Shown here in pieces: positions 44,970-61,124 of a stretch of 64,000 nt of DNA. This DNA comes from Dehalococcoidia bacterium (GTDB lineage: Bacteria > Chloroflexota > Dehalococcoidia > JAUQQI01): NCBI GenBank assembly GCA_042408785.1, contig JBHOQU010000032.1, positions 26,798-90,797 of the forward strand. The letters are read 5' to 3'. Position 1 is the stretch's first letter, and each line of letters starts with the position of its first letter. The position numbers and the translations under genes were made by a program. The notes beneath the pieces were generated by a model. It saw only the letters and a program-made list of their open reading frames with translations. It ran no database searches and was not told the origin of the DNA.

Positions 44970-44979
44970 GGCTGTCAAG

Positions 44980-45759
44980 GTGGTCCTGCCCAAGCGGTCG
45001 GTAACGGTCGACATTGTGGTTCCCGTTTACAACGAGGAACGGGTCCTGCGCCGCAACGTTGAAGCTTTAAGGTCCTTTCTTCTGGAGACGAATTTCCCCT
45101 ACCGGTGGCAGGTGGTTATCGCCGACAACGCCTCCCGGGACCGGACCCTGGAGGTGGCCCGGGAGCTGGCCGCCGATTACCCGGAGGTCCGGGTCCTGCA
45201 CCTGGAACAGAAGGGCCGGGGCCGGGCCCTGCGGGCCGCCTGGCTTGGGAGCGAGGCCGACGTGGTCTGCTATATGGACGTGGACCTCTCCACCAACCTG
45301 CGGGCATTGGAGCCCCTCATCCGGGCCGTGGCCGAGGAGGGCTATGACCTGGCCATTGGCTCCCGGCTGATGCCGGCCTCCCGCACGACCCGCTCCCTGA
45401 AGCGGGAGGTGATCTCCCGGGCCTATAACTTGCTCATTAAGCTGATGTTCTTTAACCGGTTCAGCGACGCCCAATGCGGGTTTAAGGCCCTCTCCCGCCG
45501 GGCCGTTCAGGCCCTGGTGCCCCTGGTGCGGGACCAGTCGTGGTTTTTCGACTCGGAGCTGCTTTTGCTGGCGGAGCATTTCGGGTATAAGATTAAAGAG
45601 ATTCCGGTGGAGTGGGTCGAGGACCTGGACTCGCGGGTGAACATCCTAAAGACGGCCTGGGAGGACGTCCTGGGCCTCATCCGGGTCCGCTGGACCTTAA
45701 GCCCCTTCGGCCGCCTTAAAATCGGCCCGGCGGCCTCGGAACACCGGCCCACCCTATAA
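44980..45759 (+). CDS. Family 2 glycosyltransferase (polyprenyl-phosphate sugar synthase, Dpm1/GtrB-like)
   Basis: VDIVVPVYNEE, ADNAS.DRT and YMDVDLS (DxD) motifs, soluble GT-A fold. Confidence 0.75.
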   Translation: MVLPKRSVTVDIVVPVYNEERVLRRNVEALRSFLLETNFPYRWQVVIADNASRDRTLEVARELAADYPEVRVLHLEQKGRGRALRAAWLGSEADVVCYMDVDLSTNLRALEPLIRAVAEEGYDLAIGSRLMPASRTTRSLKREVISRAYNLLIKLMFFNRFSDAQCGFKALSRRAVQALVPLVRDQSWFFDSELLLLAEHFGYKIKEIPVEWVEDLDSRVNILKTAWEDVLGLIRVRWTLSPFGRLKIGPAASEHRPTL

Positions 45760-45770
45760 CCCTTTTAACC

Positions 45771-46790: not shown

Positions 46791-46795
46791 CCGCG

Positions 46796-47590
46796 ATGAC
46801 CCTGCGCGTCCTGGTAACCAACGACGACGGCATCTACGCCCCCGGCCTCTGGGCCCTGGCCCAGGAGCTGGTCAGGGACTTCCGGGTCTACGTGGTCGCC
46901 CCCGACCGGGAGCAGAGCGCCATCGGGGCGGCCATAAGCCTTAACCACCCCATCCGGGTGAACCGCCTGCCGGCCATCATGAGCGGGGACCTGGAAGCCT
47001 ACTCGGTGGAGGGGACGCCGGGCGACTGCGTCATAATGGCCATCAACAGCCTGTTTAAAGACGGCATCGACTGCGTGGTTTCGGGCCTGAACGAGGGCTC
47101 CAACCTTGGCAACGACGTCCTCATCTCGGGAACAGTTGGGGCCGCCCTCCACGGCTACTTCCTCGGCCGGCCGGCCTTTGCCCTCTCGATAAACAGCCTC
47201 CGGCCCGAAAACGTCGAGCCTGGCGCCCGGCTGGCTCGCCTCCTCGTCCGGCTGGTGGCCCAGGGCCAGCTGCCCGAAAAGATTCTGCTCAACATAAACC
47301 TTCCAGACCTGCCCCTGGGGGCGATCCGGGGAATCGAGGTCACCTACCTGGCCCGGCGCAGCTACACCGACATTATCGAAGAGCACGTGGACCGCAAGGG
47401 CCGGAGCCTTTACTGGATAACCCGGGGCAAGCCCGTCTGGGAAGAGGAGGAGGGCAGCGACATCTGGGCCATCCGCCAGTCAAAGGTCTCCATAACCCCC
47501 CTCGAGGCCGATGTGGCCAGCCGGGAACACATCGACCTGCTGCGCCGGCTGGTCCCCGACCTCTTTTCGGGCCTGCTTAACCTGGACTGA
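46796..47590 (+). CDS. surE: 5'/3'-nucleotidase SurE
   Basis: MTLRVLVTNDDGIYAPGL N-terminal SurE signature. Confidence 0.9.
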   Translation: MTLRVLVTNDDGIYAPGLWALAQELVRDFRVYVVAPDREQSAIGAAISLNHPIRVNRLPAIMSGDLEAYSVEGTPGDCVIMAINSLFKDGIDCVVSGLNEGSNLGNDVLISGTVGAALHGYFLGRPAFALSINSLRPENVEPGARLARLLVRLVAQGQLPEKILLNINLPDLPLGAIRGIEVTYLARRSYTDIIEEHVDRKGRSLYWITRGKPVWEEEEGSDIWAIRQSKVSITPLEADVASREHIDLLRRLVPDLFSGLLNLD

Positions 47591-49420: not shown

Positions 49421-49557
49421 CTACAGACTACCTGATCGCCCCCCAATAACCCTTAGGCCATAAAACTGGAAAGCCCTGCGTAAAGACCGTGGGCTTTCGG
49501 CTGATACGCAAGGATGCTAAGCTTAATATTGACACCCGTGGTAGGAGACGGAGGTCG

Positions 49558-51375
49558 ATGCTCAAATCCCACAGTTGCGGCGAGCTTCGCCCGGCCCACG
49601 TCGGCCAGGAGGTGACCCTGGCCGGCTGGGTCCACCGGCGCCGGGACCACGGCGGCCTCATCTTTATCGACCTGCGGGACCGCTCCGGCCTGGTCCAGGT
49701 GGTGGCCAACCCCCAGGTCGCCCCGGACGCCCACCGGACGGCCGACCTCTGCCGGGCCGAGTACGTGATTCTGGTGGGCGGCACGGTAAGCCGCCGGCCG
49801 CCGGGGACGGAAAACCCCAACCTGCCCACGGGCGAGGTAGAGGTGGTGGCCCGGACGCTCCGGATCCTTTCGGCGGCCCGGACCCCGCCCTTCCCCATCG
49901 CCGACGAGCAGTCCGTTGACGAGTACGTGCGGCTCAAATACCGCTACCTGGACCTGCGCCGGCCGAAGATGCAGGCCAACCTCCTGCTCCGCCACCGGGT
50001 CATCCAGTTCATCCGGGACTACCTGGACGCCCGGGGCTTCTTGGAGGTCGAGACGCCGATCCTGACTAAAAGCACCCCGGAGGGGGCGCGGGACTACCTG
50101 GTGCCCAGCCGGGTCCATCCCGGCAAGTTTTACGCCCTGCCCCAGTCGCCCCAGCAGCTCAAGCAGCTGCTCATGGTGGCCGGCTTTGAAAAGTACTTCC
50201 AGATCGCCCGCTGCTTCCGGGACGAGGACCTGCGGGCGGACCGCCAGCCCGAGTTCACCCAGCTCGACCTGGAGATGAGCTTCGTTGACCAGGACGACAT
50301 CTTAAACCTCATTGAAGCTTTAATCACCGAGCTGGTTCGGACCGTAACCCCCGAGTTTAAAATCCGGGTCCCGTTCCCCCGGCTCACCTTTCAGGAGGTT
50401 ATGGACCGCTACGGCACCGACCATGCCGACCTGCGCTTCGGCCTCGAGCTGGTGGATGTGACCGACATCCTGGCCGAGACCCAGTTCCAGGTCTTCCGCC
50501 AGGCCGTGGCCGCCGGCGGCCGGATAAAGGGGATCCGGGTGCCTGGTCAGGCCGGCATCAGCCGGCGGGAGGTGGAGGAGCTGGCCGCCTACGTCCGACC
50601 GTTCGGCCTTGGGGGTCTGGTAAGCGTGGCCGTGGAGCCCTTTACCGGCCGGGAAGGGCAGATCCGGGTTGGGGAGCTCGGCGTCCGGTCGCCGGTGGGC
50701 CGCCACCTCACCGAGGCCGAGTTTGCGGGCCTCATCGGCCGGTTCGGGGCCGAGGCCGGGGACCTGATCCTGCTGGGGGCCGGGCCTTACCCGGTAGTCT
50801 CCCGGGGCCTTGCCGAGCTGCGGGAGGAGCTGGGTCGCCGGCTGGGCCTGGCCGACCCGAACCTGCTGGTCTTCGCCTGGGTGGTGGACTTCCCGGCCTT
50901 TGAGTTTAAAGAGCAGGAGAACCGCTGGGATGCGGTCCACCACCCCTTCACCGCCCCCAGGGACGAAGACCTGCCCTACCTGCTCACCGACCCCGGCCGG
51001 GTCCGGGCCAAGCAGTACGACCTCATCTGCAACGGCCACGAGCTCGGGGGCGGAAGCATCCGCATCACCGACCCGGAGGTCCAGCGGCAGGTCTTCCAGG
51101 TGATGGGACATACCCGCGAGAGCATCGAGCGCCAGTTCGGCCACCTGCTCACCGCCTTTGAGTACGGCGTGCCGCCCCACGGCGGGATCGCCATTGGGCT
51201 GGACCGCCTGGTTGCCCTCCTGGCCCGGGAACCCACCATCCGGGAGGTTATCGCCTTCCCGAAGACCAAGGATGCGGTGGACCTGCTTTTCGGGGCCCCC
51301 TCGGAGGTGAGCCCGGAGCAACTCAAGGAGCTACACATCAAGGTGTGTCTGGAGGACTCAGGGCAACCACGATAA
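49558..51375 (+). CDS. aspS: Aspartate--tRNA ligase
   Basis: MLKSHSCGELRPAHVGQEVTLAGWVHRRRDHGGLIFIDLRD N-terminal OB fold; class II motifs FRDEDLRADRQPEFTQLD and GLDRLVAL; bacterial GAD insertion. ATG at 49558 with a GGAGG RBS. Confidence 0.93.
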   Translation: MLKSHSCGELRPAHVGQEVTLAGWVHRRRDHGGLIFIDLRDRSGLVQVVANPQVAPDAHRTADLCRAEYVILVGGTVSRRPPGTENPNLPTGEVEVVARTLRILSAARTPPFPIADEQSVDEYVRLKYRYLDLRRPKMQANLLLRHRVIQFIRDYLDARGFLEVETPILTKSTPEGARDYLVPSRVHPGKFYALPQSPQQLKQLLMVAGFEKYFQIARCFRDEDLRADRQPEFTQLDLEMSFVDQDDILNLIEALITELVRTVTPEFKIRVPFPRLTFQEVMDRYGTDHADLRFGLELVDVTDILAETQFQVFRQAVAAGGRIKGIRVPGQAGISRREVEELAAYVRPFGLGGLVSVAVEPFTGREGQIRVGELGVRSPVGRHLTEAEFAGLIGRFGAEAGDLILLGAGPYPVVSRGLAELREELGRRLGLADPNLLVFAWVVDFPAFEFKEQENRWDAVHHPFTAPRDEDLPYLLTDPGRVRAKQYDLICNGHELGGGSIRITDPEVQRQVFQVMGHTRESIERQFGHLLTAFEYGVPPHGGIAIGLDRLVALLAREPTIREVIAFPKTKDAVDLLFGAPSEVSPEQLKELHIKVCLEDSGQPR

Positions 51376-52849
51376 GATCGTCCCCCCCGAGGCGGCGGGC
51401 GTAGGCCGTCCGGATTTCAAAGACCACCGGCAGGTCCGGCCGCCCAACCAGGTTCGGATACCAGGCCGGGAAGAACACCAGGTAGTCGGCGCCCCGCCGG
51501 CGCAGCTCGGCTACCAGCCGGTCCGGGTCCCGAACGGAGTGTATAAGTTCCGGGTTGAGAAGGCCGGCCGTGTCGATTAAGGTTCGGCCGCCGAAATAGC
51601 CCAGGGCCCCCACGTCGTGGGAGGCGATGACCGCCCCGGGTGGGATCTCCGTCCGGACCCAGCGGGCAACCCCCAGGTGCTCGTCGTTGATCCAGCGCAC
51701 CTCGAGGCCGTAGTTTCGGGCCGCGGCCAGGTCAAAGAGGGCCATCGCAAAGAAGACAATCTGGGGAAACCAGCGGCGGACGATTTTCAGCCCAAGGCCG
51801 GCAAGGGCGTGCTCAACGCCCAGCAGGCCGCCCACCAGCAGGGGCGGCAGGGCCGGCTGAAGGTAGCGGCCGTGGTGGAAGGTGGCCGGAACCACCTGGG
51901 ATAAAACGACCAGGAGGACCGGGGGCCAGAGGATTAGGGGCACGGTTTCGGGCCGGCGGCCGAAGCGGGCGGCCGCCACCAGAAAGCCGGGGCCGACCAG
52001 CAAAAGCGGCCCCCGGATAAGTTCCGTCAGGGCCGTCGGTAAGAAGAAGCCGAGGCTGGCAAGCCCCCGACCCCCGCCGTACCCCACGTACTTGGCCAAA
52101 AAGGTGCTGGGGAGCGGACTGCCGGTCACCTGCCAGTTCCAGAGGCCCACCGGCCCCACCAGCAGGGCCCAGACCAGGGCGGCCGCGGCCGCCCGGAGGG
52201 CCAGAGGTCCAGGGCCGTCCGCCCGGGCACCGTCGGCGGCAGCCCGGGCCAGGCCCACTAGGCCGGCCAGCAGCCCCAGCTCGGGCCGGAGCAGGGTGCC
52301 CACGGCGGCCGCGGCCCCGAAGAAGGCCCAGCCCCGCAGGTTCTGGGGTCCGGAGAGGCCCCAGGTGAGGAGCACCAGCACCACCCAGACGGCGGCCGCC
52401 GTCTCCATTCCCGAAAGCCCGGACCAGAGGATGTGCGCCTCCCCGGCCACCAGCAGCCCCGCCCGGCCGGCCCAGGCCGAGTTGGGGGCCAGCCGGCGGG
52501 CCAGTCGGGCCGCCTGATAGCCGGCCAACCCCACGAAGGCCAGCCCCCATCCCAGGGCCCACCCGACCGGGTCGACCCCGAGCAGGTGGCCCACGGCCAT
52601 CAGCCAGGTCCAGAGGGGGGCGGTGGAGGCGGCCACCGGCCGCCCCTCGGCGTAGTACATTCCCCCCAGGGCGAAAAAGTTCCGGGCGATGGTCTGGTGG
52701 ATCCAGGGGTCGTCCAGGGGAAAACCGTAGCCGGTGCCGGCGTAAATCCGGACGCTCAGCAGACAGATCAGGCCGAGGCCGGCGGCAAGCCCGAAGGGGG
52801 CAAGCTCCGCCCAGAGTCGACCGGTCACCGGACCTTCTTCAGCGGCCAT
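51338..52849 (-). CDS. GT-C-fold polytopic membrane glycosyltransferase (ArnT/PMT-like, GT39/GT83-type), paralog 1
   Basis: Over 10 predicted TM helices. The first-loop motif FPLDDPWIHQTIARNF resembles the DE/DD motif of GT-C enzymes. The ORF extends to 52918; an internal Met start was chosen. Confidence 0.55.
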   Translation of the reverse strand: MAAEEGPVTGRLWAELAPFGLAAGLGLICLLSVRIYAGTGYGFPLDDPWIHQTIARNFFALGGMYYAEGRPVAASTAPLWTWLMAVGHLLGVDPVGWALGWGLAFVGLAGYQAARLARRLAPNSAWAGRAGLLVAGEAHILWSGLSGMETAAAVWVVLVLLTWGLSGPQNLRGWAFFGAAAAVGTLLRPELGLLAGLVGLARAAADGARADGPGPLALRAAAAALVWALLVGPVGLWNWQVTGSPLPSTFLAKYVGYGGGRGLASLGFFLPTALTELIRGPLLLVGPGFLVAAARFGRRPETVPLILWPPVLLVVLSQVVPATFHHGRYLQPALPPLLVGGLLGVEHALAGLGLKIVRRWFPQIVFFAMALFDLAAARNYGLEVRWINDEHLGVARWVRTEIPPGAVIASHDVGALGYFGGRTLIDTAGLLNPELIHSVRDPDRLVAELRRRGADYLVFFPAWYPNLVGRPDLPVVFEIRTAYARRLGGDDLIVVALSPPDTP

Positions 52850-54015
52850 AAGGCCTGACGGTGGACTTCGGCCAGCGCCGCCCCGGCCACCAGCGCCGGG
52901 TAGACGGCCCAGACCCACCAGCCGTCAGCTCGGAGGCCGATGACCAGGACGGCCGGGAACCAGACGAGCCCGAGCCAGAGGATAAGGCCGGGGGCCGATC
53001 CGGCCCAGCCGCTCAGGAGCCAGCCGAGGGGAATCAGGAGGGCGACCAGGTCGAAAATCCCCACGTGGGGGGTGAGGAGCAGGTTCAGCAGGAGCGCCCC
53101 GACCAGGCCGGCCCAGGGGAAGTCGTCGGACCGGATGATTTCGCCGGCCGACCGAACCAGAAGCCACCCCGCCCCCAATAGGCCCAGGACGGCCGGGAAG
53201 GTAAAGGCGTAGGCCGGCTTCCAGGTTACGAAGCTCGGGCCGACGTTAACCTCGTACCGGGCAATGGCCGCAAGAAAATCGCCCACCCACCACCCGGCCG
53301 GCAGGGAGGTCAGCAGGGTAAGTCCGGTCAGGCAGGTCCCAAGCCCGGCCGCAACCCCGAACCGCCGGCGGGCCGCGGCCCAGCCGAGGACGAACAATAC
53401 AGTCAGAAACGAAACCGAGGGCTTCACGGCTGCCAGGGCCAGGACGGCCCCGGCCGGCACATCCCGGCCGGCGCGTAACAGGCCCCAGGCGAGAGCCCCC
53501 AGGCCGACGACCGCCAGGCCGTACTGGCCCACGACTACACTGAGGACGGCCGGCCAGAAAAGGGCCAGGCTGAAAAAGACTACCCCGAGGCTAAGGGGCG
53601 GCGGCCGGGGCCAGGCCGCCCAGGCGACCGTAAGGCTCAGGGCCAGCAGAAGGGCAAGGTTGACGCCGCCCCAGACCCGGACGGCCGCCTCCAGGGGGAG
53701 GGGCAGCAGGGGCCCGACCAGGGCCACGATATATGCCGGGTAGTAAAAGCCGAACTGGGGCTCTTCCGGCAGCCGGGATCGGCCGTAGACCGTCTGGTGG
53801 ATTTCGGCCTCAACCTCGGGACCGTAGGGGTTCTGGCCCCGCAGGAGGGCCCGTCCCCCAACCCACCGGGGATAGAGGTCCACCCCGAAAGGCCAGAAGA
53901 TTACCCGCCCGGTCCCCACGTCGACCCGAGTGGCCCGCTCGGGCAGACTATCCCCCAGCTGCCAGGCTGCCGGCAGGCCTGCCCCCAGGGCCACCAGGAA
54001 GCCCAGCAGGGGCAT
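52825..54015 (-). CDS. Polytopic membrane protein, possible glycosyltransferase (DUF2029/GT87-like)
   Basis: Start taken at MPLLGFLVALGAG, followed by many TM helices. The N-terminal part of the listed ORF overlaps the upstream gene and was trimmed. Confidence 0.45.
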   Translation of the reverse strand: MPLLGFLVALGAGLPAAWQLGDSLPERATRVDVGTGRVIFWPFGVDLYPRWVGGRALLRGQNPYGPEVEAEIHQTVYGRSRLPEEPQFGFYYPAYIVALVGPLLPLPLEAAVRVWGGVNLALLLALSLTVAWAAWPRPPPLSLGVVFFSLALFWPAVLSVVVGQYGLAVVGLGALAWGLLRAGRDVPAGAVLALAAVKPSVSFLTVLFVLGWAAARRRFGVAAGLGTCLTGLTLLTSLPAGWWVGDFLAAIARYEVNVGPSFVTWKPAYAFTFPAVLGLLGAGWLLVRSAGEIIRSDDFPWAGLVGALLLNLLLTPHVGIFDLVALLIPLGWLLSGWAGSAPGLILWLGLVWFPAVLVIGLRADGWWVWAVYPALVAGAALAEVHRQALWPLKKVR

Positions 54016-54107
54016 AAGCCAGACCCGGTCCGATAAGGTTCGGAACCCGGCCACCGGCTCGGCAGTCTCCCGGCCGGGGACGTCAGACGGCCTGCGCCTC
54101 CGAATGC

Positions 54108-55688
54108 CTACTCCTCCACCCGAAAGATCTTTATCTTGCCCACCTGTCCGGCAAGCCGGAACCGCGGGCTGGCCTGCGGGTCCTGCCAGAGGGGAAGCCA
54201 GGGCTCGGGGAAGGCCGGCTCCAGGATAAGGTATTTTGCCCCGTAGCGGCGGCAGACCTCCCAGGTGGTCTCCAGGTCGTTGTTGGCCACCACCACGGCC
54301 GGGATGCCGCTCGAGTAATAATAGGCGGGCGGGTCCACAATCATCACCGGGTCGGCAACCCCCTGCTGGCGGAACCAGGCGGCCACCGCCTCGTAGGCCC
54401 AGAACCGGAGGTCCCACTCGCCGGCGGCCCGGATGCCGAGGCCCACGCTGGCCGCCACGAAGCCGCCGACAAAGATCAGCCCGACGTTCCGGACGGCCCG
54501 CTCCGGCTCCCAGCGGGGCCGGTGCCGGGCGACCCAGCGGATGGCCTCCTCGAGGCCCCGGGCGGCGGCCACCCCGAAGAAGGGCAGCCCCACCACCCCG
54601 CTGTGAAACAGCGTGCCCCGGGATGACGGGAACGTAAAGACCAGGGTGAGCACGACGAAGAGGGCGGCCACATAGGCCCAGGCCAGGAGAAAAGCGGGGT
54701 CTCGGCGCAGCCGCCAGATGCCGAGGAGGCCGAACGGCAGCAACAGGATTAAAGAAACACTCAGAAAGAAATTGAGGTTCTTAAAGGCCGCATTAATTTT
54801 AGAATTTACAATCGAATCAAAGCCCCAGGCCAGATAATAGTTGGGCCCGAGCTCGAGACCGTAGCTGAAAACCTCGTTGTAGTCCCGCAGCCAGGCAACC
54901 TTTAACCCGCCGCCCGGCAGGGGCGTTCCGAAAGTCAGCAGGTTTCGGGCCCACCAGGGCCCGGCCGCCAGGCAGAAGCCCAGCACCGCCAGGGCCGCCA
55001 GCCCCAGCCGCCGGCTCAGGGCGGCCTTGAACCCCGGCCGTAGGACCCAGCCGGCGACCACGGCCAGCAGGAGAGGCCCGTCGGGCCGGGTCAGGTAGCC
55101 GAGGCCGCTCAAAACCCCGGCCCCGACCGCCCCCCAGCCCCCCGACAGCGGCAGGTTCCGGGCCAGGTAAAGGGCCAGCGCCCCGGCCAGGCCGAACAGG
55201 GCGAAGTTGTCGGTTCCGTGCCAGTAGATAAAGTAGCTTCCGCCGGCCCCGGTGATTGCCGCCGCCCAGAGGCGTGGCCACGCCGCCGGTGCCGGCCAGA
55301 CCCGTCCGGCCAGGTGGTAGGCAAACACCGGCAGGGCGGCCGAGGCCGCCAGGCTGGGCAGCTGGGCCGCCCGGAAGGACTCCCCCAGGAGGCCGAAGGC
55401 CCCGGCGATGAGGATTGAGGTAAGGGGCATCCAGTAGTCGTTGCTCGGGTGGGTTATGGTCGGGGGCGGATTCAGCCAGTTCCAGATAATGTCTTCAACG
55501 AAGCCCCGGCCTAAGTAAAGGTTGCGGCCGACGTGATAGTAGTAAAACGCGTCCATGTAGCCCGGTTGGGAGACCAGCCGGGCCCCAAGGAGCCGCAGTC
55601 CCAGGAAAACCGCAAAAATAAGCAGGTAAGGCCGGCTCACCGCAGCCGGTAAAGGCCGTACTCGGGCCGGTCTGGGGTGCCGCCCCAC
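54108..55688 (-). CDS. GT-C-fold polytopic membrane glycosyltransferase (ArnT/PMT-like), paralog 2
   Basis: Loop-1 motif GYMDAFYYYHVGRNLYLG (D-x-x-Y-x-H-x-x-RN), multiple TM helices and a large C-terminal periplasmic-type domain. Confidence 0.55.
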   Translation of the reverse strand: MGRHPRPARVRPLPAAVSRPYLLIFAVFLGLRLLGARLVSQPGYMDAFYYYHVGRNLYLGRGFVEDIIWNWLNPPPTITHPSNDYWMPLTSILIAGAFGLLGESFRAAQLPSLAASAALPVFAYHLAGRVWPAPAAWPRLWAAAITGAGGSYFIYWHGTDNFALFGLAGALALYLARNLPLSGGWGAVGAGVLSGLGYLTRPDGPLLLAVVAGWVLRPGFKAALSRRLGLAALAVLGFCLAAGPWWARNLLTFGTPLPGGGLKVAWLRDYNEVFSYGLELGPNYYLAWGFDSIVNSKINAAFKNLNFFLSVSLILLLPFGLLGIWRLRRDPAFLLAWAYVAALFVVLTLVFTFPSSRGTLFHSGVVGLPFFGVAAARGLEEAIRWVARHRPRWEPERAVRNVGLIFVGGFVAASVGLGIRAAGEWDLRFWAYEAVAAWFRQQGVADPVMIVDPPAYYYSSGIPAVVVANNDLETTWEVCRRYGAKYLILEPAFPEPWLPLWQDPQASPRFRLAGQVGKIKIFRVEE

Positions 55689-57667
55689 TCCCCCAGTACG
55701 GGCAGGCCCTTCAGCTCGGCCCGGATGCGGGCCGCCTCCTCCGGAGACGGGCTTCCCCAGACTCGAACCGCGTACTCAAAGCCCCGCCAGCTCACCAGGA
55801 CCGTCCGGTAGCCCGAGGCGGCCCAGGCGGCCACCGGGTCCGGGCCCGAGGTTCGCCACCGGTCCAGCAGGTCATCGGGCCGGCAGCCGGGCAGGCAGAA
55901 ATAGGCCCGCGGCTCCCAGAGCAGGAGGGCCGGTGCCGCCTCGGGGGCGGAGGCCGCCAAAACGGCCCGGTAGTAGCTTCCCAGGGCGCGGTCATAAAAG
56001 TCGGCCGCAGAGCTTAGTCCCAGGCCGCCGGCCGGCAGGGGGCCGCTCAGAACCCCGCCCCAGAGGCTTATCAGGTTAACGGCCGCCACGACCGCCACCG
56101 CTCCCTGGAGGAAAAACCGGAACTCCGAAATCCCGATGGCCCGGGCCCACAGGACGGCGGCCACCGGCAGCAGCGGCAGAAGAAAGCGCCCCTGCATCAG
56201 GTTGGCCGAAAAGAGCCCGAGGCCGACCCAGTAGGCAAAACCGCCGGCGACGAAACGGCCCAGGGCCCGCGCCCCGTCGGGCCCGGCCTGGTGCCGGGCG
56301 AGGATTGCCGGAAAGGTCGCCAGCCACACCGGTCCCAGGGTGAAATCGTAGCTTAGGGTGCCTGCCGTGGCAAGGGCCGAAAGTTCTAAAGGGGACGCGG
56401 CCAGCCGCAGCAGGCGGGGCAGGTCCGGCCCGCCACCCCACCAGGCCGCCCGCTCCGGACTCCAGCCGACGCCCCCCAAAACAAACGGGTAAACCGGGTT
56501 GCCCGTTCGCACCCAGGTGTCCAGGTACCAGGGGAAAGCCGCCAGCCCGGCGATGGGGAGCGCCCGGGGGCCGGCCGGCAGGTAAAGGAGGGCCAGAACC
56601 AGCACGAAGCCGACGGCCGTAAGCTTGGTGGCCAGGGCCGCTCCCAGCCAGAGGCCGAAGCCGGTCCGGTCCCCCGCCACGAGGGCTGCAGCGGCCAGCA
56701 GGAGCCAGAGGCCCAGCCAGTAGTCGGTGTAGGCCCAGGGCACAAGCTCCAAGGCCGAAGGCACCGCCGCCAGCAGGCCGAAAACAAGGGCCACCGGTGC
56801 CCCCACCTTGGCGGCCAATCGGCCGGCCGCCCAGCAGACCAGGCCGGCCACGGCGAGGGCGAGCACCCTGGGGGCCCGTTCCCCGCCCAGGGCCATGGCC
56901 CAGCCGTAGACGGTCTCGGCCAGCTTTGGGAAATAAAAATGGGGCGCGCCGGGCAGGTCCGGATACCGGCCGGTTTCCAGCATCACCCTGGGTACCGTCA
57001 GGTGGTAGACAAGGGCGTCCCACTCGAAGGGCGGCGCCGCGGCGACGGCCCCCAAAGGCACCCCGAAGGCCAGGCCGGCGGCTATCAACCCTAATCCGGG
57101 TCGAATCTCCGGCCGGCCGGGCTTTAAAAGCCTTTGCCGGCCGGCCAGAAGTCCCACCAGCCCGATCAGCCCGAGAGCGGCCGCACCGAGTCGCAGGTTT
57201 TCGGCCCGGGCCAGGCCGACCGAGGCCAGCCCGAGGCCCAGACCGCCCAGGATGATGAACCCGGCCCCCGCCCACTCGGGAACCGACCACCGGTCCCGCC
57301 GCAGAAGGACGCCGGCCAGGCGCCCGAGCAGAACTGCCAGGACCAGGGTGGCGGCCGCCCCCGCCCACCCGGCCGCCACCGCCGGCGCGTCGGACCAGGT
57401 CGAACCGGCCGCCGCGAGGTTGGCGGCCACCCCGGCGGGAAAGTCGGCGGGAAGGGGCTTGTGAACGGCAAAGTAGGGCACGTAAACGGCGGCGGCCCAG
57501 AGGGCGAGCAGGCCGAGCCGGACGGCCCGGTCGGGGCTGTTGGGTGCGGGTTTAATCGCCTTCGCCGTAGTAGGCCTGGAGGGCGCGGTCGAGTTTAACG
57601 CCCGTAAGCACCGTGCCCAGGATGCGGGCATTGACTTTCTCCAGGGCGGCCTTGGCCCGGCGGGCAA
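55637..57667 (-). CDS. GT-C-fold polytopic membrane glycosyltransferase (ArnT/PMT-like), paralog 3
   Basis: Loop motif FEWDALVYHLTVPRVMLETG, more than 12 TM helices and a C-terminal soluble domain. The start is uncertain: it overlaps the upstream kinase gene by 80-116 nt and no alternative start codon exists downstream. Confidence 0.5.
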   Translation of the reverse strand: MPAGPRPPWRKSMPASWARCLRALNSTAPSRPTTAKAIKPAPNSPDRAVRLGLLALWAAAVYVPYFAVHKPLPADFPAGVAANLAAAGSTWSDAPAVAAGWAGAAATLVLAVLLGRLAGVLLRRDRWSVPEWAGAGFIILGGLGLGLASVGLARAENLRLGAAALGLIGLVGLLAGRQRLLKPGRPEIRPGLGLIAAGLAFGVPLGAVAAAPPFEWDALVYHLTVPRVMLETGRYPDLPGAPHFYFPKLAETVYGWAMALGGERAPRVLALAVAGLVCWAAGRLAAKVGAPVALVFGLLAAVPSALELVPWAYTDYWLGLWLLLAAAALVAGDRTGFGLWLGAALATKLTAVGFVLVLALLYLPAGPRALPIAGLAAFPWYLDTWVRTGNPVYPFVLGGVGWSPERAAWWGGGPDLPRLLRLAASPLELSALATAGTLSYDFTLGPVWLATFPAILARHQAGPDGARALGRFVAGGFAYWVGLGLFSANLMQGRFLLPLLPVAAVLWARAIGISEFRFFLQGAVAVVAAVNLISLWGGVLSGPLPAGGLGLSSAADFYDRALGSYYRAVLAASAPEAAPALLLWEPRAYFCLPGCRPDDLLDRWRTSGPDPVAAWAASGYRTVLVSWRGFEYAVRVWGSPSPEEAARIRAELKGLPVLGEWGGTPDRPEYGLYRLR

Positions 57668-58910
57668 ACTCCCGCCGGGTCTTCCCCGCCTGGAGGACCA
57701 GCAGCACCCCGTCGACCCGGCTGGCTAAAAGGAGGGCGTCGGTGACGGCCAGAACGGGCGGTGAATCGTAAAGGACATAATCGGCCGTCTCGGCCAGCCT
57801 GGCCATCACCTCGGCCATCCGGCGGGAAGCCAGAAGCTCGGCGGGGTTGGGGGGAAGGGGGCCGCTGGGCAGGAGCCAGAGGTTCTCAACGCCCGTCTCG
57901 AAAAGGGGCGGCTCCTGGTCGGGCTCGCCAACGACCAAGCTGGTAAGTCCCACCTGATTTTTAAGGGCGAAAAGCTTGTGGAGGCCGGGCCGGCGCAGGT
58001 CAGCATCCACCATAATAACCCGGCTCCCGGCCTGGGCGAAGGCGATGGCCAGGTTGGCCAGGGTGGTCGTCTTGCCTTCCTCCGGGCCCGTCGACGTAAC
58101 CAGGATGGTCCGGACCGGCCGGTCCGGGCTGGCAAACTGGATGCTGGTGCGCAGCTGGCGGAAGGCCTCGGCCACCGGCGAGCGGGGGTCAAGCTTGGTG
58201 ATCAGGGCTTTTTCCATCTCCACGGAATACCCTCCGGAAATGCGGCCGGCCGGGACGGGGAGCCTGGGAACGACCCCGAGGACCGCCTGACCCAGCAACC
58301 TTTCGGACTCCTCGGCCGACTTGACGGTGTCGTCCAGAAACTCCAGAAGAAACGCCGCCAGTACCCCGATTACCAGCCCCAGCACCGCCCCCGCCAGGAC
58401 GTTGGACCGGGTCCGGGGCCAGGCCAGCACCGGGGGCGACGGGTCGTCGTAGCGCTCCACGTCGACCCGGTCCCGCTTGTCCACATCCTTCATCCGGAGC
58501 TGTTGCTGCTCCCGGAAGGCCTCGGCCAGGGCCAGGACGATCCGCCGGGCCATCTCCGGGTTCGGGTCATCGGCCTCGACCAGAATCGCCTGGGCGTCGG
58601 CGGCCTCGCTCACCCGGACCCTTCGGCGAAACTCCTCCGGCGAAAGGTCGAGCTGGAGCTGGCTGTTTACCCGCTTGATGATGGCGTCGGTGGTCAGGAG
58701 CTGGCTGTACTGGCGGATGGTCTCCCGAACCACCAGGGTGACGCCGTAGTCCGGCCGCCACGGGATGACGAAGAGCCTGATGGAGGACCGGTAGAAGGGC
58801 TGTTGAAGCTTGCTGTAAACGTAGGCAGAACCGGCGGCCAGCACCACCAGGGCCGCAATCAACCACCACCTTCGGCCCAGGACCCGCCAGTAATCTTTCA
58901 GCCCCATCAA
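57552..58910 (-). CDS. Polysaccharide co-polymerase / bacterial tyrosine autokinase fusion (Wzz-like N-terminus plus CpsD/CapB-like P-loop ATPase)
   Basis: N-terminal TM region and Wzz-like domain; C-terminal Walker A VTSTGPEEGKTTT and Walker B VIMVDADLRRP; C-terminal ...QAYYGEGD. Confidence 0.75.
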   Translation of the reverse strand: MMGLKDYWRVLGRRWWLIAALVVLAAGSAYVYSKLQQPFYRSSIRLFVIPWRPDYGVTLVVRETIRQYSQLLTTDAIIKRVNSQLQLDLSPEEFRRRVRVSEAADAQAILVEADDPNPEMARRIVLALAEAFREQQQLRMKDVDKRDRVDVERYDDPSPPVLAWPRTRSNVLAGAVLGLVIGVLAAFLLEFLDDTVKSAEESERLLGQAVLGVVPRLPVPAGRISGGYSVEMEKALITKLDPRSPVAEAFRQLRTSIQFASPDRPVRTILVTSTGPEEGKTTTLANLAIAFAQAGSRVIMVDADLRRPGLHKLFALKNQVGLTSLVVGEPDQEPPLFETGVENLWLLPSGPLPPNPAELLASRRMAEVMARLAETADYVLYDSPPVLAVTDALLLASRVDGVLLVLQAGKTRREFARRAKAALEKVNARILGTVLTGVKLDRALQAYYGEGD

Positions 58911-58977
58911 CGGCCATTTTATAACTCATTCACCCGGCCTTGTCAACGGCCGACCGTGACGTTAGACTTTTGGGGAT

Positions 58978-60390
58978 ATGGGCCTTAACAGGATCCCGGT
59001 TATCGGCGCGGCCAAGGCCCTGCGGAACACGGCCCGGCTCCTGCGCCTGGGCGGGGGTACGGCCCTTCCCGGCCTGGTTGTGGAGGCCGTCGCCCCCAAC
59101 TACCTGGACGAGTGGACCCAGCAGCTCACCGGCGGGATCATCCTCGTAAGCGGCACCAACGGCAAGACCACCACCGTTCGGATGACGGCCGAGATTCTGC
59201 TGCGGGCTGGCTACGAGCCGGTCTCCAACCGGGCCGGGTCGAACCTGCTCCGGGGCATCCTGAGCGCCCTGGTGGAGCGCTCCGACTGGCAGGGCCGCCT
59301 TGTGCTGGGGGGGCGCGGGGTGGGCCTTTTCGAGGTGGATGAGGGCACCCTCCCCCAGATGCTGGGCCGGCTCCGGCCCCACGTGGTGGTTTTGACCAAC
59401 CTTTTCCGGGACCAGCTCGACCGCTACGGGGAGGTCGAGGCCCTGGCCCGGGCCTGGCGGCGGGTGCTGGCGGAAACGCCGCCGGAGGTCCTAATCGCAA
59501 ACGCCGACGACCCGAACCTGGCCGCCCTGGCCGAGGAGTTTCCCAAAGATGTGGTCCTTTTCGGCCTGGAAAGTTCCCCCTTTGCCCGGGACCAGCTTCC
59601 CCACGCCGCCGACGCCCGCTTCTGCCCCCGGTGTAACGGCCCACTTAAATACGAGGTGGTCTATTACAGCCACCTGGGCAAATACCGGTGTCCCGACTGC
59701 GGCTGGGAAAGGCCAGTGCCCGACATCGTCGGGGAAATCGTCCGAACCCAGGGGGTCGAAAGCCTCGGACTCTTGGTCCAATTTGGGGGCGAGCCCTTCG
59801 AGGTTGACCTGCCGGTCGGGGGCACGTATAATGCCTACAACGCCCTGGCCGCCACGGCCGTGGCCTACGCCTACCGGGTTCCGGCCAGGCTGGTCCGGCA
59901 GGGGCTGGGGGCGTTCCAGCCGGCCTTCGGCCGCCAGCAGGTGGTGGTCTTTAACCGCCGCCGGCTTGTAACAATCCTGGTTAAAAACCCGGCCGGCTTT
60001 AACGAGGCCATAAACCTGATCCTTTCGGACGGCCGGGACGAGCCTAAAAACTTGTTAATCATCCTCAACGACCGGGTAAACGACGGGAGGGATATCTCCT
60101 GGGTCTGGGACGTGGATTTCGACCTGCTCCGGGGGCGGGTGGGCCTGGTGGTTGCTTCGGGCCTTCGGGCTGCCGAGATGGCCCTCCGGCTTAAATACGC
60201 CGAAGTTGCCGGCACCGCCGACTCTCCCGAGCCCATCGTCGAACCCGACATCCGCCGGGCCCTGGACATCGCCGTTGAGAAGACCCGGCCCGGCTCGACC
60301 CTTTACATCTTGCCGACTTATACGGCCCTGCTCGACCTGCAGCGAATTCTGGCCCGCCGCGGGCTTACCCGGCCTTACTGGGAGGCCTGA
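58978..60390 (+). CDS. murT: Lipid II isoglutaminyl synthase, Mur-ligase-family subunit MurT
   Basis: Mur ligase P-loop ILVSGTNGKTTT, Cys4 ribbon CPRC...CPDC and a C-terminal DUF1727-like domain. Followed directly by gatD. Confidence 0.85.
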   Translation: MGLNRIPVIGAAKALRNTARLLRLGGGTALPGLVVEAVAPNYLDEWTQQLTGGIILVSGTNGKTTTVRMTAEILLRAGYEPVSNRAGSNLLRGILSALVERSDWQGRLVLGGRGVGLFEVDEGTLPQMLGRLRPHVVVLTNLFRDQLDRYGEVEALARAWRRVLAETPPEVLIANADDPNLAALAEEFPKDVVLFGLESSPFARDQLPHAADARFCPRCNGPLKYEVVYYSHLGKYRCPDCGWERPVPDIVGEIVRTQGVESLGLLVQFGGEPFEVDLPVGGTYNAYNALAATAVAYAYRVPARLVRQGLGAFQPAFGRQQVVVFNRRRLVTILVKNPAGFNEAINLILSDGRDEPKNLLIILNDRVNDGRDISWVWDVDFDLLRGRVGLVVASGLRAAEMALRLKYAEVAGTADSPEPIVEPDIRRALDIAVEKTRPGSTLYILPTYTALLDLQRILARRGLTRPYWEA

Positions 60391-61124
60391 TGGAGCTGCG
60401 CATCGGCTATTTTTACCCCGACGAGCTCAACCTCTACGCCGACCGGGGCAACGTCATCTGCCTGGTCCAGCGCTGCCGGTGGCGGGGAATCGACGTCCGG
60501 GTGGTGCCGGTGGAGCTTAGGGAGCAGTTCAACCCCGACGACTTCGACCTCCTGATGCTGGGTGGGGGACAGGATCGAGACCAGCGGATCGTGGCCGAGG
60601 ACCTGGTAGGGGTGAAGGGTGAGGCCCTGCGGGCGGCGGTGGAGTCGGGGGTGGTGGTGCTGGCGGCCTGCGCCGCTTACCAGCTTCTGGGCCACTATTA
60701 CCAGCCGGCCGAGGGCGAGCCGATCCGGGGGCTGGGCATCTTTGATGCCTACACCATCCACCCCGGTCCCAGCGAGCCGCGGTGCATCGGCAACATCGTC
60801 GTGGAATGGCAGGGCCGGACCCTGGTGGGGTTTGAAAACCACGGCGGCCGGACGGTCCTCGGCCCGGGGGCCGCCCCCCTGGGGCGGGTGGTGGTCGGCT
60901 TCGGGAACAACGGCCAGGACGGCACCGAAGGGGCGGTCTATAGATCCGCCTTCGGCACCTACATGCACGGGTCCCTCCTGCCTAAAAACCCCCATTTCGC
61001 CGACCACCTCATCTGGCTCGCCCTAAAGCGCCGCTACACCGACGTGACCCTAGCCCCCCTGGACGACCGGCTGGAGCTGGCGGCCCATCAGGCGGCAATC
61101 CAGCGGGCCAAGGCGGGGGATTAG
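60390..61124 (+). CDS. gatD: Lipid II isoglutaminyl synthase, glutaminase subunit GatD (CobB/CobQ-like GATase)
   Basis: GATase1-like with the catalytic Cys in VVLAACAAYQLLG and a conserved His near YMHGSLL. Start overlaps the murT stop. Confidence 0.8.
   Translation: MELRIGYFYPDELNLYADRGNVICLVQRCRWRGIDVRVVPVELREQFNPDDFDLLMLGGGQDRDQRIVAEDLVGVKGEALRAAVESGVVVLAACAAYQLLGHYYQPAEGEPIRGLGIFDAYTIHPGPSEPRCIGNIVVEWQGRTLVGFENHGGRTVLGPGAAPLGRVVVGFGNNGQDGTEGAVYRSAFGTYMHGSLLPKNPHFADHLIWLALKRRYTDVTLAPLDDRLELAAHQAAIQRAKAGD

What the first reader, a model, noticed from the sequence alone, without database searches (positions are those of the whole stretch)
51338..58910. Operon of a Wzc-like tyrosine autokinase followed by three paralogous GT-C membrane glycosyltransferases and a fourth polytopic membrane protein, with no Wzx/Wzy/Wza genes
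- Five consecutive minus-strand genes overlap one another by tens of nucleotides.
- Three of the large (526-676 aa) polytopic proteins share a first-loop motif D-[DEA]-x-x-[YWI]-H-x-x-x-[AG]-R-N (DDPWIHQTIARN, DAFYYYHVGRN, FEWDALVYHLTVPRVML). This resembles the DE/DD loop of ArnT/PMT-type GT-C enzymes, which use polyprenyl-phosphate sugar donors.
- A Dpm1-like GT2 and a polyprenyl diphosphate synthase sit 6 kb away at 44980-46790.
- The Wzz-domain/BY-kinase fusion at the operon head is normally found in Wzy-dependent capsule loci, but no flippase, polymerase, initiating transferase or Wza is present.
- This combination suggests an atypical cell-envelope glycan or protein/S-layer O-glycosylation pathway built from GT-C enzymes and controlled by a tyrosine kinase.
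Basis: partly seen in the sequence, partly recalled or inferred. Interest (0 to 1): 0.6.

Follow-up and report, generated by a model that had tools for sequence, protein, structure and literature searches.

The report
Tyrosine kinase plus four GT-C glycosyltransferases
An uncultured Chloroflexota bacterium carries one operon with a capsule-type tyrosine kinase and four membrane sugar-transferases of the kind that build mycobacterial cell walls; the four-enzyme set recurs across the phylum and probably builds an undescribed cell-envelope glycan, but the kinase link is recent and unproven.

Summary
The five minus-strand genes are real, and all four polytopic proteins, not three, are GT-C-fold glycosyltransferases.

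- **P3 and P4:** ArnT/PMT-like deep paralogs of P1 (profile-profile probability 96-99.6%; no BLASTP similarity).
- **P2:** CAZy family GT87, PimE-like.
- **Gene head:** a Wzz/BY-kinase fusion with only two C-terminal tyrosines.
- **Absences:** no Wzx, Wzy, Wza or initiating transferase anywhere in the 64 kb window.

- True overlaps are 4 nt (GTGA) at two junctions, not tens of nucleotides.
- The nearby polyprenyl synthase is a trans-type GGPPS-like enzyme, not a carrier-lipid synthase.
- The kinase's nearest orthologs (52-55% identity) stand alone among housekeeping genes. The kinase-GT-C adjacency is therefore lineage-specific, although it recurs independently in two other Chloroflexota lineages.

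The more robust finding is that the four GT-C families form a conserved module (usually P2-P4-P3-P1, often with a Dpm1-like GT2) across Chloroflexota classes. I read it as a new variant of extracytoplasmic, polyprenyl-phosphate-sugar-dependent glycan assembly.

The parts
58918..58946 (-). Promoter-like element TTGACA-17 nt-TATAAA. It ends 10 nt upstream of the kinase ATG, implying a near-leaderless mRNA. It lies in the 70-bp divergent region shared with murT.
   Evidence: Read directly from the sequence. The automatic scan missed it because it requires T at position 6 of the -10 hexamer. Function is inferred only.
57552..58907 (-). K: a 451-aa fused polysaccharide co-polymerase (Wzz, 2 TM, roughly 135-aa outer loop) and BY-type tyrosine autokinase. 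Walker A is GPEEGKTT, Walker A' is VDADLRRP, Walker B is LYDSPP. The C-terminal tail AYYGEGD has only two Tyr.
   Evidence: TIGR01007 1.7e-57 (194 bits, cutoff 108); Wzz PF02706 30.2 bits (cutoff 25.5). TM segments. Motifs and tail from alignment A6.
55637..57631 (-). P4: an ArnT/PMT-like GT-C enzyme with about 165 extra N-terminal residues (4-5 TM, conserved HKP motif) and a C-terminal alpha/beta domain. Conserved D217, Y221, H222, D315, K348, GNPxYP and R494. The start is uncertain; ATG 57631 with a GGAG Shine-Dalgarno sequence lies 80 nt inside K.
   Evidence: The family profile hits ArnT 5ezm (4.9e-6) and Pmt2 6p25 (2.9e-4). The AF2 model (pTM 0.76) hits ArnT 1.6e-4, then AftA, ALG12 and ALG9. 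Homologs at 30% identity carry PF02366, PF13231 and PF26626.
54108..55640 (-). P3: a GT-C enzyme and deep paralog of P1 and P4. Conserved D46, D160, R201, R357/G358/H362. The start is probably GTG 55640 (GTGA overlap with the P4 stop); the maximal ORF starts at 55688.
   Evidence: hhalign gives P1-P3 99.6% (E 1e-23, 457 columns) and P3-P4 98.6%. The PMT_2 hit is only 18.1 bits against a cutoff of 26.1. There is no direct PDB sequence hit. The ortholog in L001 is called at 510 aa with a 4-nt overlap.
52825..54054 (-). P2: a GT87-family (PimE-like) GT-C enzyme of about 409 aa. Its first loop has invariant Asp and Trp (D61, W66 in A4 numbering).
   Evidence: PF09594 GT87 scores 25.1 bits (cutoff 25) on the trimmed protein, and 21 of 22 family members match. 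The family profile hits PimE 9dm5 at 1.3e-3. It is not related to P1, P3 or P4 by hhalign.
51338..52828 (-). P1: an AftB-like GT-C enzyme of 496 aa with no Pfam family. It has a DD motif (D39, D40), E142, R181 and R321, and a C-terminal alpha/beta domain with invariant H404, D405 and G407. The start is GTG 52828 (GTGA overlap with the P2 stop).
44980..45759 (+). Candidate donor synthase: a Dpm1/ArnC/GtrB-type GT2 (polyprenyl-phosphate sugar synthase type). It lies 6 kb away in a separate operon. Its membership of the system is inferred, not shown.
   Evidence: PF00535. PDB hits are Pyrococcus DPMS 2e-14, ArnC 3e-10 and GtrB 4e-6. NCBIfam best hits are PgfS, Dol-P-hexose transferase and ArnC, all below cutoffs. 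Homologs of this GT2 sit within 10 kb of the P4 homolog in 15 of 79 Chloroflexota loci and directly inside the GT-C cluster in several, e.g. L011 and L026.

Best explanation
The locus encodes an extracytoplasmic glycan-assembly module made of four GT-C-fold glycosyltransferases: one AftB-like (P1), two ArnT/PMT-like (P3, P4) and one GT87/PimE-like (P2).

**Proposed mechanism.** Each enzyme would take a single sugar from a polyprenyl-phosphate-linked donor. A Dpm1-type GT2 makes that donor on the cytoplasmic face, and it is then flipped across the membrane. The sugar is added on the outer face of the membrane to a growing envelope glycan. The product would be a lipoglycan or wall-linked polysaccharide, by analogy with mycobacterial LM/LAM and arabinogalactan assembly.

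**Role of the kinase.** In this lineage the module is co-transcribed behind a PCP-2b-like Wzz/BY-kinase. The kinase may couple chain length or assembly activity to tyrosine autophosphorylation.

**Shown**
- The GT-C fold and family assignment of all four proteins.
- Conservation of the catalytic-type residues.
- Conservation of the four-gene module across Chloroflexota.
- The identity of the kinase.
- Absence of Wzx/Wzy/Wza from the window.

**Inferred**
- The nature of the donors.
- The acceptor and the product.
- Co-transcription of the five genes.
- Any regulatory role of the kinase.
For: **P1**
- The family profile hits AftB at 2.5e-9.
- AftB's essential D62, E172, R221 and R372 (PMC12041299) align to P1-family invariant D40, E142, R181 and R321.

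**P3 and P4**
- Both are homologous to P1 over about 450 columns.
- P4 keeps all four equivalent positions (D217, D315, K348, R494). P3 keeps three that align (D46, D160, R201) plus an invariant Arg (R357) in the fourth loop that does not align exactly.
- The P4 family profile hits ArnT and Pmt2.

**P2**
- GT87 family membership and a PimE profile hit.

**Module conservation**
- Of 79 non-redundant P4 loci (nearly all Chloroflexota), P2-like genes occur in 40, P3 in 22, P1 in 14 and the GT2 in 15.
- The full set, ordered P2-P4-(x)-P3-P1, is present in at least 7 distant loci (Anaerolineae, Caldilineaceae and others), besides the window lineage.

**Operon**
- GTGA overlaps at two junctions, no internal terminators above chance, and one promoter-like site upstream of K.

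**Kinase**
- Intact Walker motifs.
- BY-kinase/PCP genes head GT-C arrays independently in L084 and L058.
Against: - No biochemical data exist for any member. Donor and acceptor are unknown.
- No flippase or lipid-anchor priming enzyme was identified in the window.
- The GT2 is 6 kb away in a different operon.
- The kinase's nearest orthologs (52-55% identity) are stand-alone genes with no GT-C neighbours, and about 95% of P4 loci have no kinase within 10 kb. Dedicated regulation is therefore not conserved.
- K has only two C-terminal tyrosines, and no cognate phosphatase is nearby.
- 13 of 35 long loci carry P4 alone, so the module is not obligatory.
- The P4 model is of only moderate confidence (pLDDT 70.5).
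Confidence: 0.6

Rival explanations
1. The kinase is a general, orphan BY-kinase/PCP that regulates other targets or another polysaccharide. It landed next to the GT-C module by rearrangement. The two may be co-transcribed but are not functionally dedicated to each other.
For: - The three closest non-lineage orthologs (P0160-P0162, 52-55% identity, same length) sit alone between upp and an Opp ABC operon, near ATP synthase, an EPSP-synthase-fold gene and mreB. No GT-C or EPS genes are within 10 kb.
- Most P4 loci lack any kinase.
- K sits beside murT/gatD here, another cell-wall context.
Against: - PCP/BY-kinase genes lie directly upstream of GT-C arrays in two unrelated Chloroflexota lineages: L084 (GT4-Wzz-Wzz-BYK-PMT_2-P4-like) and L058 (BYK-like-unknown-YfhO-P4-like-PMT_2-P3-like).
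- In the window lineage, K and P4 are separated by fewer than 40 nt or overlap. P4 has no independent canonical start in three relatives, which suggests translational coupling.
Confidence: 0.35
2. The GT-C enzymes glycosylate proteins (PMT-like O-mannosylation or OST-like transfer onto S-layer or envelope proteins) rather than building a glycan polymer.
For: - P3 and P4 relatives hit the PMT and PMT_2 models.
- P1 has an invariant x-H-D-x-G just after the last TM helix, where OSTs carry WWDYG (the WWDYG position is from my own knowledge).
Against: - The best sequence-level relative of P1 is AftB, with all four donor and catalytic residues conserved.
- P2 is GT87, whose characterised members act on lipoglycans (established knowledge).
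- There are no MIR domains and no WWDYG motif.
- Four different GT-C enzymes in a conserved array suggests sequential glycan building.
- The C-terminal alpha/beta domain is also shared with ArnT-type enzymes.
Confidence: 0.2
3. The module only decorates (adds side-chain sugars to) a polymer synthesised elsewhere in the genome by a Wzx/Wzy or ABC pathway, as in three-component GtrB/GtrA/GT-C systems. On this reading K belongs to that distant pathway.
For: - Three-component systems (GT2 polyprenyl-P-sugar synthase + flippase + GT-C) are the commonest bacterial use of GT-C enzymes (PMC11127046).
- A Dpm1-type GT2 frequently accompanies the module.
- The window covers only 64 kb, so a Wzx/Wzy locus elsewhere cannot be excluded.
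Against: - Decoration systems usually have one GT-C per donor. Here four distinct and anciently diverged GT-C families are kept together across classes. That pattern is more like the multi-GT-C assembly lines of Corynebacteriales.
- No GtrA, MATE or SMR flippase was seen next to the genes in the window.
Confidence: 0.3

Closest known systems
Mycobacterial/corynebacterial GT-C assembly of LM/LAM and arabinogalactan (PimE and other GT87 enzymes, AftA-D, EmbA-C)
   Same: - Several different GT-C enzymes act sequentially on the outer face of the membrane, using polyprenyl-phosphate monosaccharide donors made by a Ppm1/Dpm1-type GT2 or the DPA pathway.
- P1 shares AftB's DD motif and the E172/R221/R372 equivalents.
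- P2 is GT87 like PimE.
   Different: - A different phylum, Chloroflexota, with no mycolate outer membrane known.
- The genes are clustered in one operon.
- P1 is shorter than AftB (496 against 669 aa) and has a small alpha/beta C-terminal domain instead of AftB's larger periplasmic domain.
- No DPA-synthesis genes (UbiA-type PPPRS, DprE1/2) were seen in the window.
- A BY-kinase heads the operon. I know of no such arrangement for the actinobacterial pathways (my own knowledge).
Three-component extracytoplasmic glycosylation systems (GtrB/GtrA/Gtr*, CsbB/GtcA/YfhO, the GT136 pentofuranose systems; PMC11127046)
   Same: - A Dpm1/GtrB-type GT2 plus polytopic GT-C enzymes that use lipid-phosphate sugars outside the membrane.
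- In L058 a YfhO-type GT-C sits in the same array.
   Different: - Four GT-C enzymes of four ancient families instead of one.
- No flippase gene was identified.
- In the window the GT2 is not adjacent.
Wzx/Wzy-dependent capsule/EPS loci with PCP-2 BY-kinases (Wzc; CapA/CapB, CpsC/CpsD)
   Same: - The head gene has the Wzz domain with 2 TM, the BY-kinase Walker A/A'/B motifs and a C-terminal Tyr tail.
- It is a fused version of the short-loop Firmicute-type PCP-2b.
   Different: - No Wzx, Wzy, initiating phosphoglycosyltransferase, Wza or cognate phosphatase in 64 kb.
- Only two tail tyrosines.
- The downstream genes are GT-C enzymes rather than cytoplasmic GT-A/GT-B transferases.
ArnT (GT83) and PMT (GT39) families
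   Same: - The GT-C_A architecture, the EL1 Asp, and a Lys/Arg that in ArnT/AftB contacts the lipid phosphate.
- The P4 family profile hits ArnT and Pmt2.
   Different: - Window P3 and P4 do not reach the Pfam PMT or PMT_2 gathering thresholds.
- There is no lipid A in Chloroflexota (PMC13319060) and no MIR domain.
- P4 has an extra N-terminal 4-5-TM extension.

Membership tests
GT-C glycosyltransferase superfamily (fold level) | A polytopic N-terminal TM domain with the GT-C helix arrangement; structural matches restricted to GT-C enzymes | tested here: met
   - P4: ArnT, AftA, ALG12 and ALG9 are top, from a moderate-quality model.
- P3: only by profile-profile homology to P1 and P4.
- P2: via Pfam GT87 and a PimE profile hit.
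GT-C glycosyltransferase superfamily (fold level) | A conserved catalytic Asp at the tip of the first extracytoplasmic loop (JM helix 1) | tested here: met
   - P1 D39/D40 are invariant in 67 of 67 sequences.
- P3 D46 is at >=90%.
- P4 D217 is invariant.
- P2-family D61 is invariant.
- P1 D40 aligns to AftB catalytic D62.
- Catalytic function itself was not tested.
AftB-type arabinofuranosyltransferase (P1) | Sequence homology to AftB, with the DD motif plus E172, R221 and R372 equivalents | tested here: met
   The P1 family profile hits AftB 9dlf at E 2.5e-9 over profile positions 41-367. D40, E142, R181 and R321 are invariant and aligned.
AftB-type arabinofuranosyltransferase (P1) | Use of decaprenyl-phosphoryl-arabinofuranose as donor, an arabinan acceptor, and an AftB-type periplasmic domain | not testable with these tools
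   - No DPA-pathway genes are in the window.
- The P1 C-terminal domain is about 100 aa, much smaller than AftB's.
- Donor and acceptor are unknown.
- P1 should be called AftB-like, not AftB.
GT87 (PF09594; PimE-type) | A Pfam GT87 match at the gathering threshold | tested here: met
   The trimmed P2 scores 25.1 bits against a cutoff of 25, which is borderline. 21 of 22 orthologs match, with a best E of 8.9e-17. The family profile hits PimE 9dm5 at E 1.3e-3.
GT39/GT83 (PMT PF02366, PMT_2 PF13231) | A Pfam match at the gathering threshold | tested here: not met
   - P3 scores 18.1 bits on PMT_2 against a cutoff of 26.1. P1 and P4 have no Pfam hit.
- Distant P4 homologs (30% identity) do carry PF02366 and PF13231.
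- These proteins are ArnT/PMT-like relatives, not members by the curated criterion.
BY-kinase / PCP-2 family | The BY-kinase catalytic domain with Walker A, A' and B | tested here: met
   TIGR01007 194.3 bits against a cutoff of 108. The motifs GPEEGKTT, VDADLRRP and LYDSPP are in the sequence.
BY-kinase / PCP-2 family | An N-terminal Wzz/PCP domain flanked by two TM helices | tested here: met
   PF02706 30.2 bits against a cutoff of 25.5. Hydrophobic segments lie at about 15-35 and 171-189.
BY-kinase / PCP-2 family | A C-terminal tyrosine cluster that is autophosphorylated | tested here: inconclusive
   The tail AYYGEGD has only two Tyr, and the closest relatives end in NYYAD. More distant relatives have GYGYYGYY-type clusters. 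Phosphorylation was not tested.
Wzx/Wzy-dependent polysaccharide locus | Presence of a Wzx flippase, a Wzy polymerase, an initiating phosphoglycosyltransferase (and an OPX/Wza in diderms) | tested here: not met
   None was found among the ORFs of the 64-kb window by Pfam. The ORFs without a Pfam hit are not polytopic. The rest of the genome was not available.
Three-component extracytoplasmic glycosylation system | A polyprenyl-phosphate sugar synthase (GT2), a flippase and a GT-C transferase | tested here: inconclusive
   The GT2 is present 6 kb away and the GT-C enzymes are present. No GtrA, MATE or SMR flippase was identified in the window. Small ORFs were not exhaustively scanned.

The most novel reading that the evidence does not exclude
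The P2-P4-P3-P1 module is a Chloroflexota-wide, so far undescribed assembly line for an arabinan/mannan-like lipoglycan or wall polysaccharide. Its product forms part of the enigmatic outer layers of the Chloroflexota envelope. In some lineages a PCP/BY-kinase acts directly on GT-C transferases as co-polymerase and regulator. That would be the first case of tyrosine-kinase/PCP control of a GT-C, Wzy-independent pathway.
Probability: 0.2. Interest if true: 0.8.

Novelty: new variant of a known kind. Interest (0 to 1): 0.55.

Why it matters
- **An open question.** The composition of the Chloroflexota cell envelope is unresolved. Layers of 'polysaccharide or protein' are invoked, and some members look diderm-like without LPS or BAM genes (PMC13319060).
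- **A concrete candidate.** A conserved cluster of four ancient GT-C families, one carrying the complete AftB catalytic constellation, gives a testable genetic candidate for a major envelope glycan in a phylum that is abundant in soils, sediments and wastewater.
- **Multi-GT-C assembly beyond Actinobacteria.** Such assembly lines have so far been described essentially for Corynebacteriales (my own knowledge). This would extend them to another phylum.
- **Dark matter in annotation.** The P1 family has about 3,200 50%-identity clusters at E<=1e-30, is almost entirely annotated 'hypothetical' and has no Pfam model.
- **A possible new pairing.** The recurrent but sporadic PCP/BY-kinase association raises the possibility that PCP proteins can partner with GT-C transferases other than Wzy.

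Tried and rejected
- **BLASTP among P1-P4** found no significant similarity. 'Recent paralogs' is rejected, and profile-profile comparison was needed.
- **Direct Pfam and NCBIfam scans** of P1, P3 and P4 gave nothing above threshold.
- **The P3 family profile against PDB sequences** gave no hit. P3 rests on hhalign only.
- **The source contig** could not be recovered through the 100%-identical P0026, which is not on record. Cluster names gave only 'Chloroflexota bacterium, hypothetical protein'.
- **The 'K' hit in L011** turned out to be ParA-like, not a BY-kinase.
- **Programmed +1 frameshifting fusing K to P4.** The P4 frame is K+1, and three relatives have no canonical start. I rejected it as unlikely because there is no slippery sequence at the K stop (GAU-UAA-A; GAG-UAG-G).
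- **The polyprenyl synthase as carrier-lipid supplier** is rejected. It is a trans-IPPS, GGPPS-like.
- **The 358-aa ORF upstream of the GT2 as a membrane partner** is rejected. It is soluble and has an HGHLQ GalT/HIT-type motif.
- **Terminator scan:** not above chance.
- **Literature searches** for Chloroflexi + GT-C, AftB + Chloroflexi, and BY-kinase + GT-C found no prior description. The library is limited to open-access papers.

Full report
**Setting**

The window has about 67% G+C. Its closest relatives are uncultured Chloroflexota MAGs, labelled 'Dehalococcoidia bacterium' or 'Chloroflexota bacterium'. The region 51338-58910 holds five consecutive minus-strand ORFs. It is bounded by a convergent aspartyl-tRNA synthetase (49489-51375) and a divergent murT/gatD pair (58978-61124). 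The same five genes with the same flanks occur in relatives at 65-83% identity: L001, L007 and L009.

**Gene boundaries**

- A 100%-identical database protein (P0026, 496 aa) places the P1 start at GTG 52828, a GTGA overlap with the P2 stop.
- The L001 gene calls (451, 564, 510, 414 and 490 aa) show 4-nt overlaps or short gaps.
- In the window the likely starts are K ATG 58907, P3 GTG 55640 (GTGA overlap), P2 GTG 54054 (53-nt gap) and P1 GTG 52828.
- A TTGACA-17-TATAAA element ends 10 nt before the K start.
- Terminator-like hairpins are no more frequent than in shuffled sequence.

A single transcription unit with translational coupling is therefore plausible, but it is inferred.

**The kinase**

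K is a fused Wzz/PCP + BY-kinase.

- TIGR01007 scores 194 bits against a cutoff of 108, and PF02706 scores 30.2 against 25.5.
- It has two TM segments and intact Walker A, A' and B motifs.
- The tail AYYGEGD carries only two tyrosines.

**The four membrane proteins**

BLASTP finds no similarity among them. Family profiles built from orthologs tell a different story.

- P1-P3 score 99.6% (E 1e-23, 457 columns), P3-P4 98.6% and P1-P4 96.4%. P2 is unrelated at this level. P1, P3 and P4 are therefore ancient paralogs.
- The motif is conserved in orthologs.

*P1.* It has no Pfam family, and 119 of its 120 listed homologs have none either.

- Its family profile hits mycobacterial AftB (9dlf) at 2.5e-9.
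- Transporter hits are insignificant.
- The AftB structure paper identifies D62 (the DD motif, nucleophile), E172, R221 and R372 as essential (PMC12041299). In the alignment these fall on P1-family invariant D40, E142, R181 and R321.

*P3 and P4.* Equivalent residues are conserved in P4 (D217, D315, K348, R494). They are largely conserved in P3 (D46, D160, R201; R357 lies in the same loop but is not exactly aligned).

- The P4 family profile hits ArnT (4.9e-6) and Pmt2 (2.9e-4).
- A moderate P4 model (pTM 0.76) puts ArnT, AftA, ALG12 and ALG9 on top.

*P2.* It reaches the GT87 gathering score when trimmed (25.1 against 25). 21 of 22 orthologs match GT87, and the family profile hits PimE.

**Context in the window**

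- Pfam scans of every sizeable ORF found housekeeping genes only. They found no Wzx, Wzy, Wza, phosphoglycosyltransferase or polysaccharide ABC exporter.
- ORFs without a Pfam hit are not polytopic.
- The GT2 at 44980-45759 is of the polyprenyl-phosphate sugar synthase type: Pyrococcus DPMS 2e-14, ArnC 3e-10, GtrB 4e-6.
- It lies in a plus-strand operon of glgA, a soluble HxHxQ protein, the GT2, a trans-IPPS and surE.
- The 'polyprenyl diphosphate synthase' is GGPPS-like, not a cis-prenyltransferase.

**Conservation elsewhere**

A genome scan with the P4 family found at least 495 relatives. Almost all of the 80 best are in Chloroflexota, mainly Anaerolineae.

| Family | Loci (of 79 non-redundant) with it within 10 kb of the P4 homolog |
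|---|---|
| P2-like (GT87) | 40 |
| P3 | 22 |
| P1 | 14 |
| Dpm1-like GT2 | 15 |

- Many contigs are short, so these counts are lower bounds.
- The complete set in the order P2-P4-(x)-P3-P1 occurs in at least seven distant loci (L022, L038, L048, L052, L065, L073, L083), often with extra P1-like or GT87 paralogs.
- The P1-type profile finds 3,222 50%-identity clusters at E<=1e-30.

The four-GT-C module is therefore an old, widespread Chloroflexota feature. This is the most robust new result.

**Is the kinase part of it?**

Against:

- The three closest K orthologs outside the lineage (52-55% identity, same length) are stand-alone genes. They lie between upp and an Opp operon, near ATP synthase and mreB, with no GT-C nearby.
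- Most P4 loci have no kinase.

For:

- L084 (Promineifilaceae) has GT4-Wzz-Wzz-BY-kinase-PMT_2-P4-like-NTP-transferase on one strand.
- L058 (a Baikal 'Dehalococcoidia' MAG) has a BY-kinase-like gene with a degenerate Walker A, followed by an unknown gene, YfhO, a P4-like gene, PMT_2 and a P3-like gene.
- In the window lineage K and P4 are nearly contiguous.

I rate dedicated regulation at roughly one in three.

**Mechanism proposed**

A Dpm1-type GT2 charges polyprenyl phosphate with a sugar. After flipping, the four GT-C enzymes add sugars sequentially to an envelope glycan or lipoglycan outside the membrane. In each enzyme the EL1 Asp would act as base or nucleophile, and the conserved Arg/Lys residues would hold the lipid phosphate, as in AftB and ArnT. 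K's Wzz domain might act as co-polymerase or scaffold, with its kinase domain cycling.

The fold, residue conservation and synteny are shown. The donor, acceptor, product and kinase role are inferred. Rival readings are an unrelated orphan kinase, protein glycosylation, and decoration only of a polymer made elsewhere.

**Comparison with known systems**

- The closest analogues are the multi-GT-C LM/LAM/arabinogalactan pathways of Corynebacteriales and the three-component Gtr/YfhO/GT136 systems (PMC11127046).
- The kinase belongs to the PCP-2/BY-kinase family of Wzy-dependent loci, but none of the other Wzy-pathway parts is present.
- Literature searches found no description of this module or of a BY-kinase heading GT-C genes.
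- The make-up of the Chloroflexota envelope remains an open question (PMC13319060).

**Verdict**

The kinase-control idea remains a hypothesis. I classify the locus as a new variant of a known kind, of moderate interest.

Noticed in passing
window 57440-57667 (K/P4 junction); L001 9710-10000; L008 815-1090; L009 10061-10330: - The first TM helix of P4 and its HKPLPADF motif are conserved at protein level in all four close relatives. Third-codon-position substitutions dominate, which indicates coding constraint.
- Three of the four relatives have no ATG, GTG or TTG between the upstream in-frame stop and that helix.
- The window has ATG 57631 with a GGAG Shine-Dalgarno sequence, 80 nt inside the kinase gene. 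The relatives have ACG at that position.
- This suggests non-canonical initiation or termination-reinitiation coupling to K. The P4 frame is K+1, but no slippery site is evident.
   Followed up: partly
[not shown]
- Overall, P1 aligns over the most residues with AglB (434).
- An invariant x-H-D-x-G (H404, D405, G407) sits just after the last TM helix, where OSTs carry WWDYG (motif position from my own knowledge).
- P3 and P4 have the same domain with different signatures, for example WEPRxY…C..C.PD..LD.W in P4.
   Followed up: partly
L087, L088, L089 (loci of the kinase's nearest orthologs); window 58978-61124: - The orphan orthologs of K sit a few genes from an EPSP-synthase-fold (MurA-like) gene and mreB.
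- In the window lineage K is divergent from murT/gatD (peptidoglycan amidation).
- The kinase therefore repeatedly neighbours cell-wall or morphogenesis genes, which may hint at a broader envelope role.
   Followed up: no
L058 774-1418: The BY-kinase-like gene heading the YfhO/P4-like/PMT_2/P3-like array has lost the Walker A GK[ST] (AEGSEAST) and has no tyrosine tail. It is a likely pseudokinase retained next to GT-C genes.
   Followed up: partly
L004/L005 13402-15717 and 7862-9991: In Anaerolineales GT-C clusters, three further genes sit between the GT2 and the GT-C genes. They are a 771-aa spermine-synthase-domain protein, an FrhB/FdhB-like protein and a methyltransferase. They may be additional, uncharacterised parts of the pathway.
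   Followed up: no
window 42391-47590: A tight plus-strand operon runs glycogen synthase GlgA, a soluble 358-aa protein with an HGHLQ (GalT/HIT-type) motif and no Pfam hit, the Dpm1-like GT2, a GGPPS-like trans-prenyl synthase (best NCBIfam hit: encapsulin cargo polyprenyl transferase, below cutoff) and SurE.
   Followed up: partly
L001 1785-5177 versus window 62169-63986: The ribonucleotide reductase of the 83%-identical relative carries an intein with a LAGLIDADG endonuclease (1130 aa). The window's copy runs off the window end, so its intein status is unknown.
   Followed up: no
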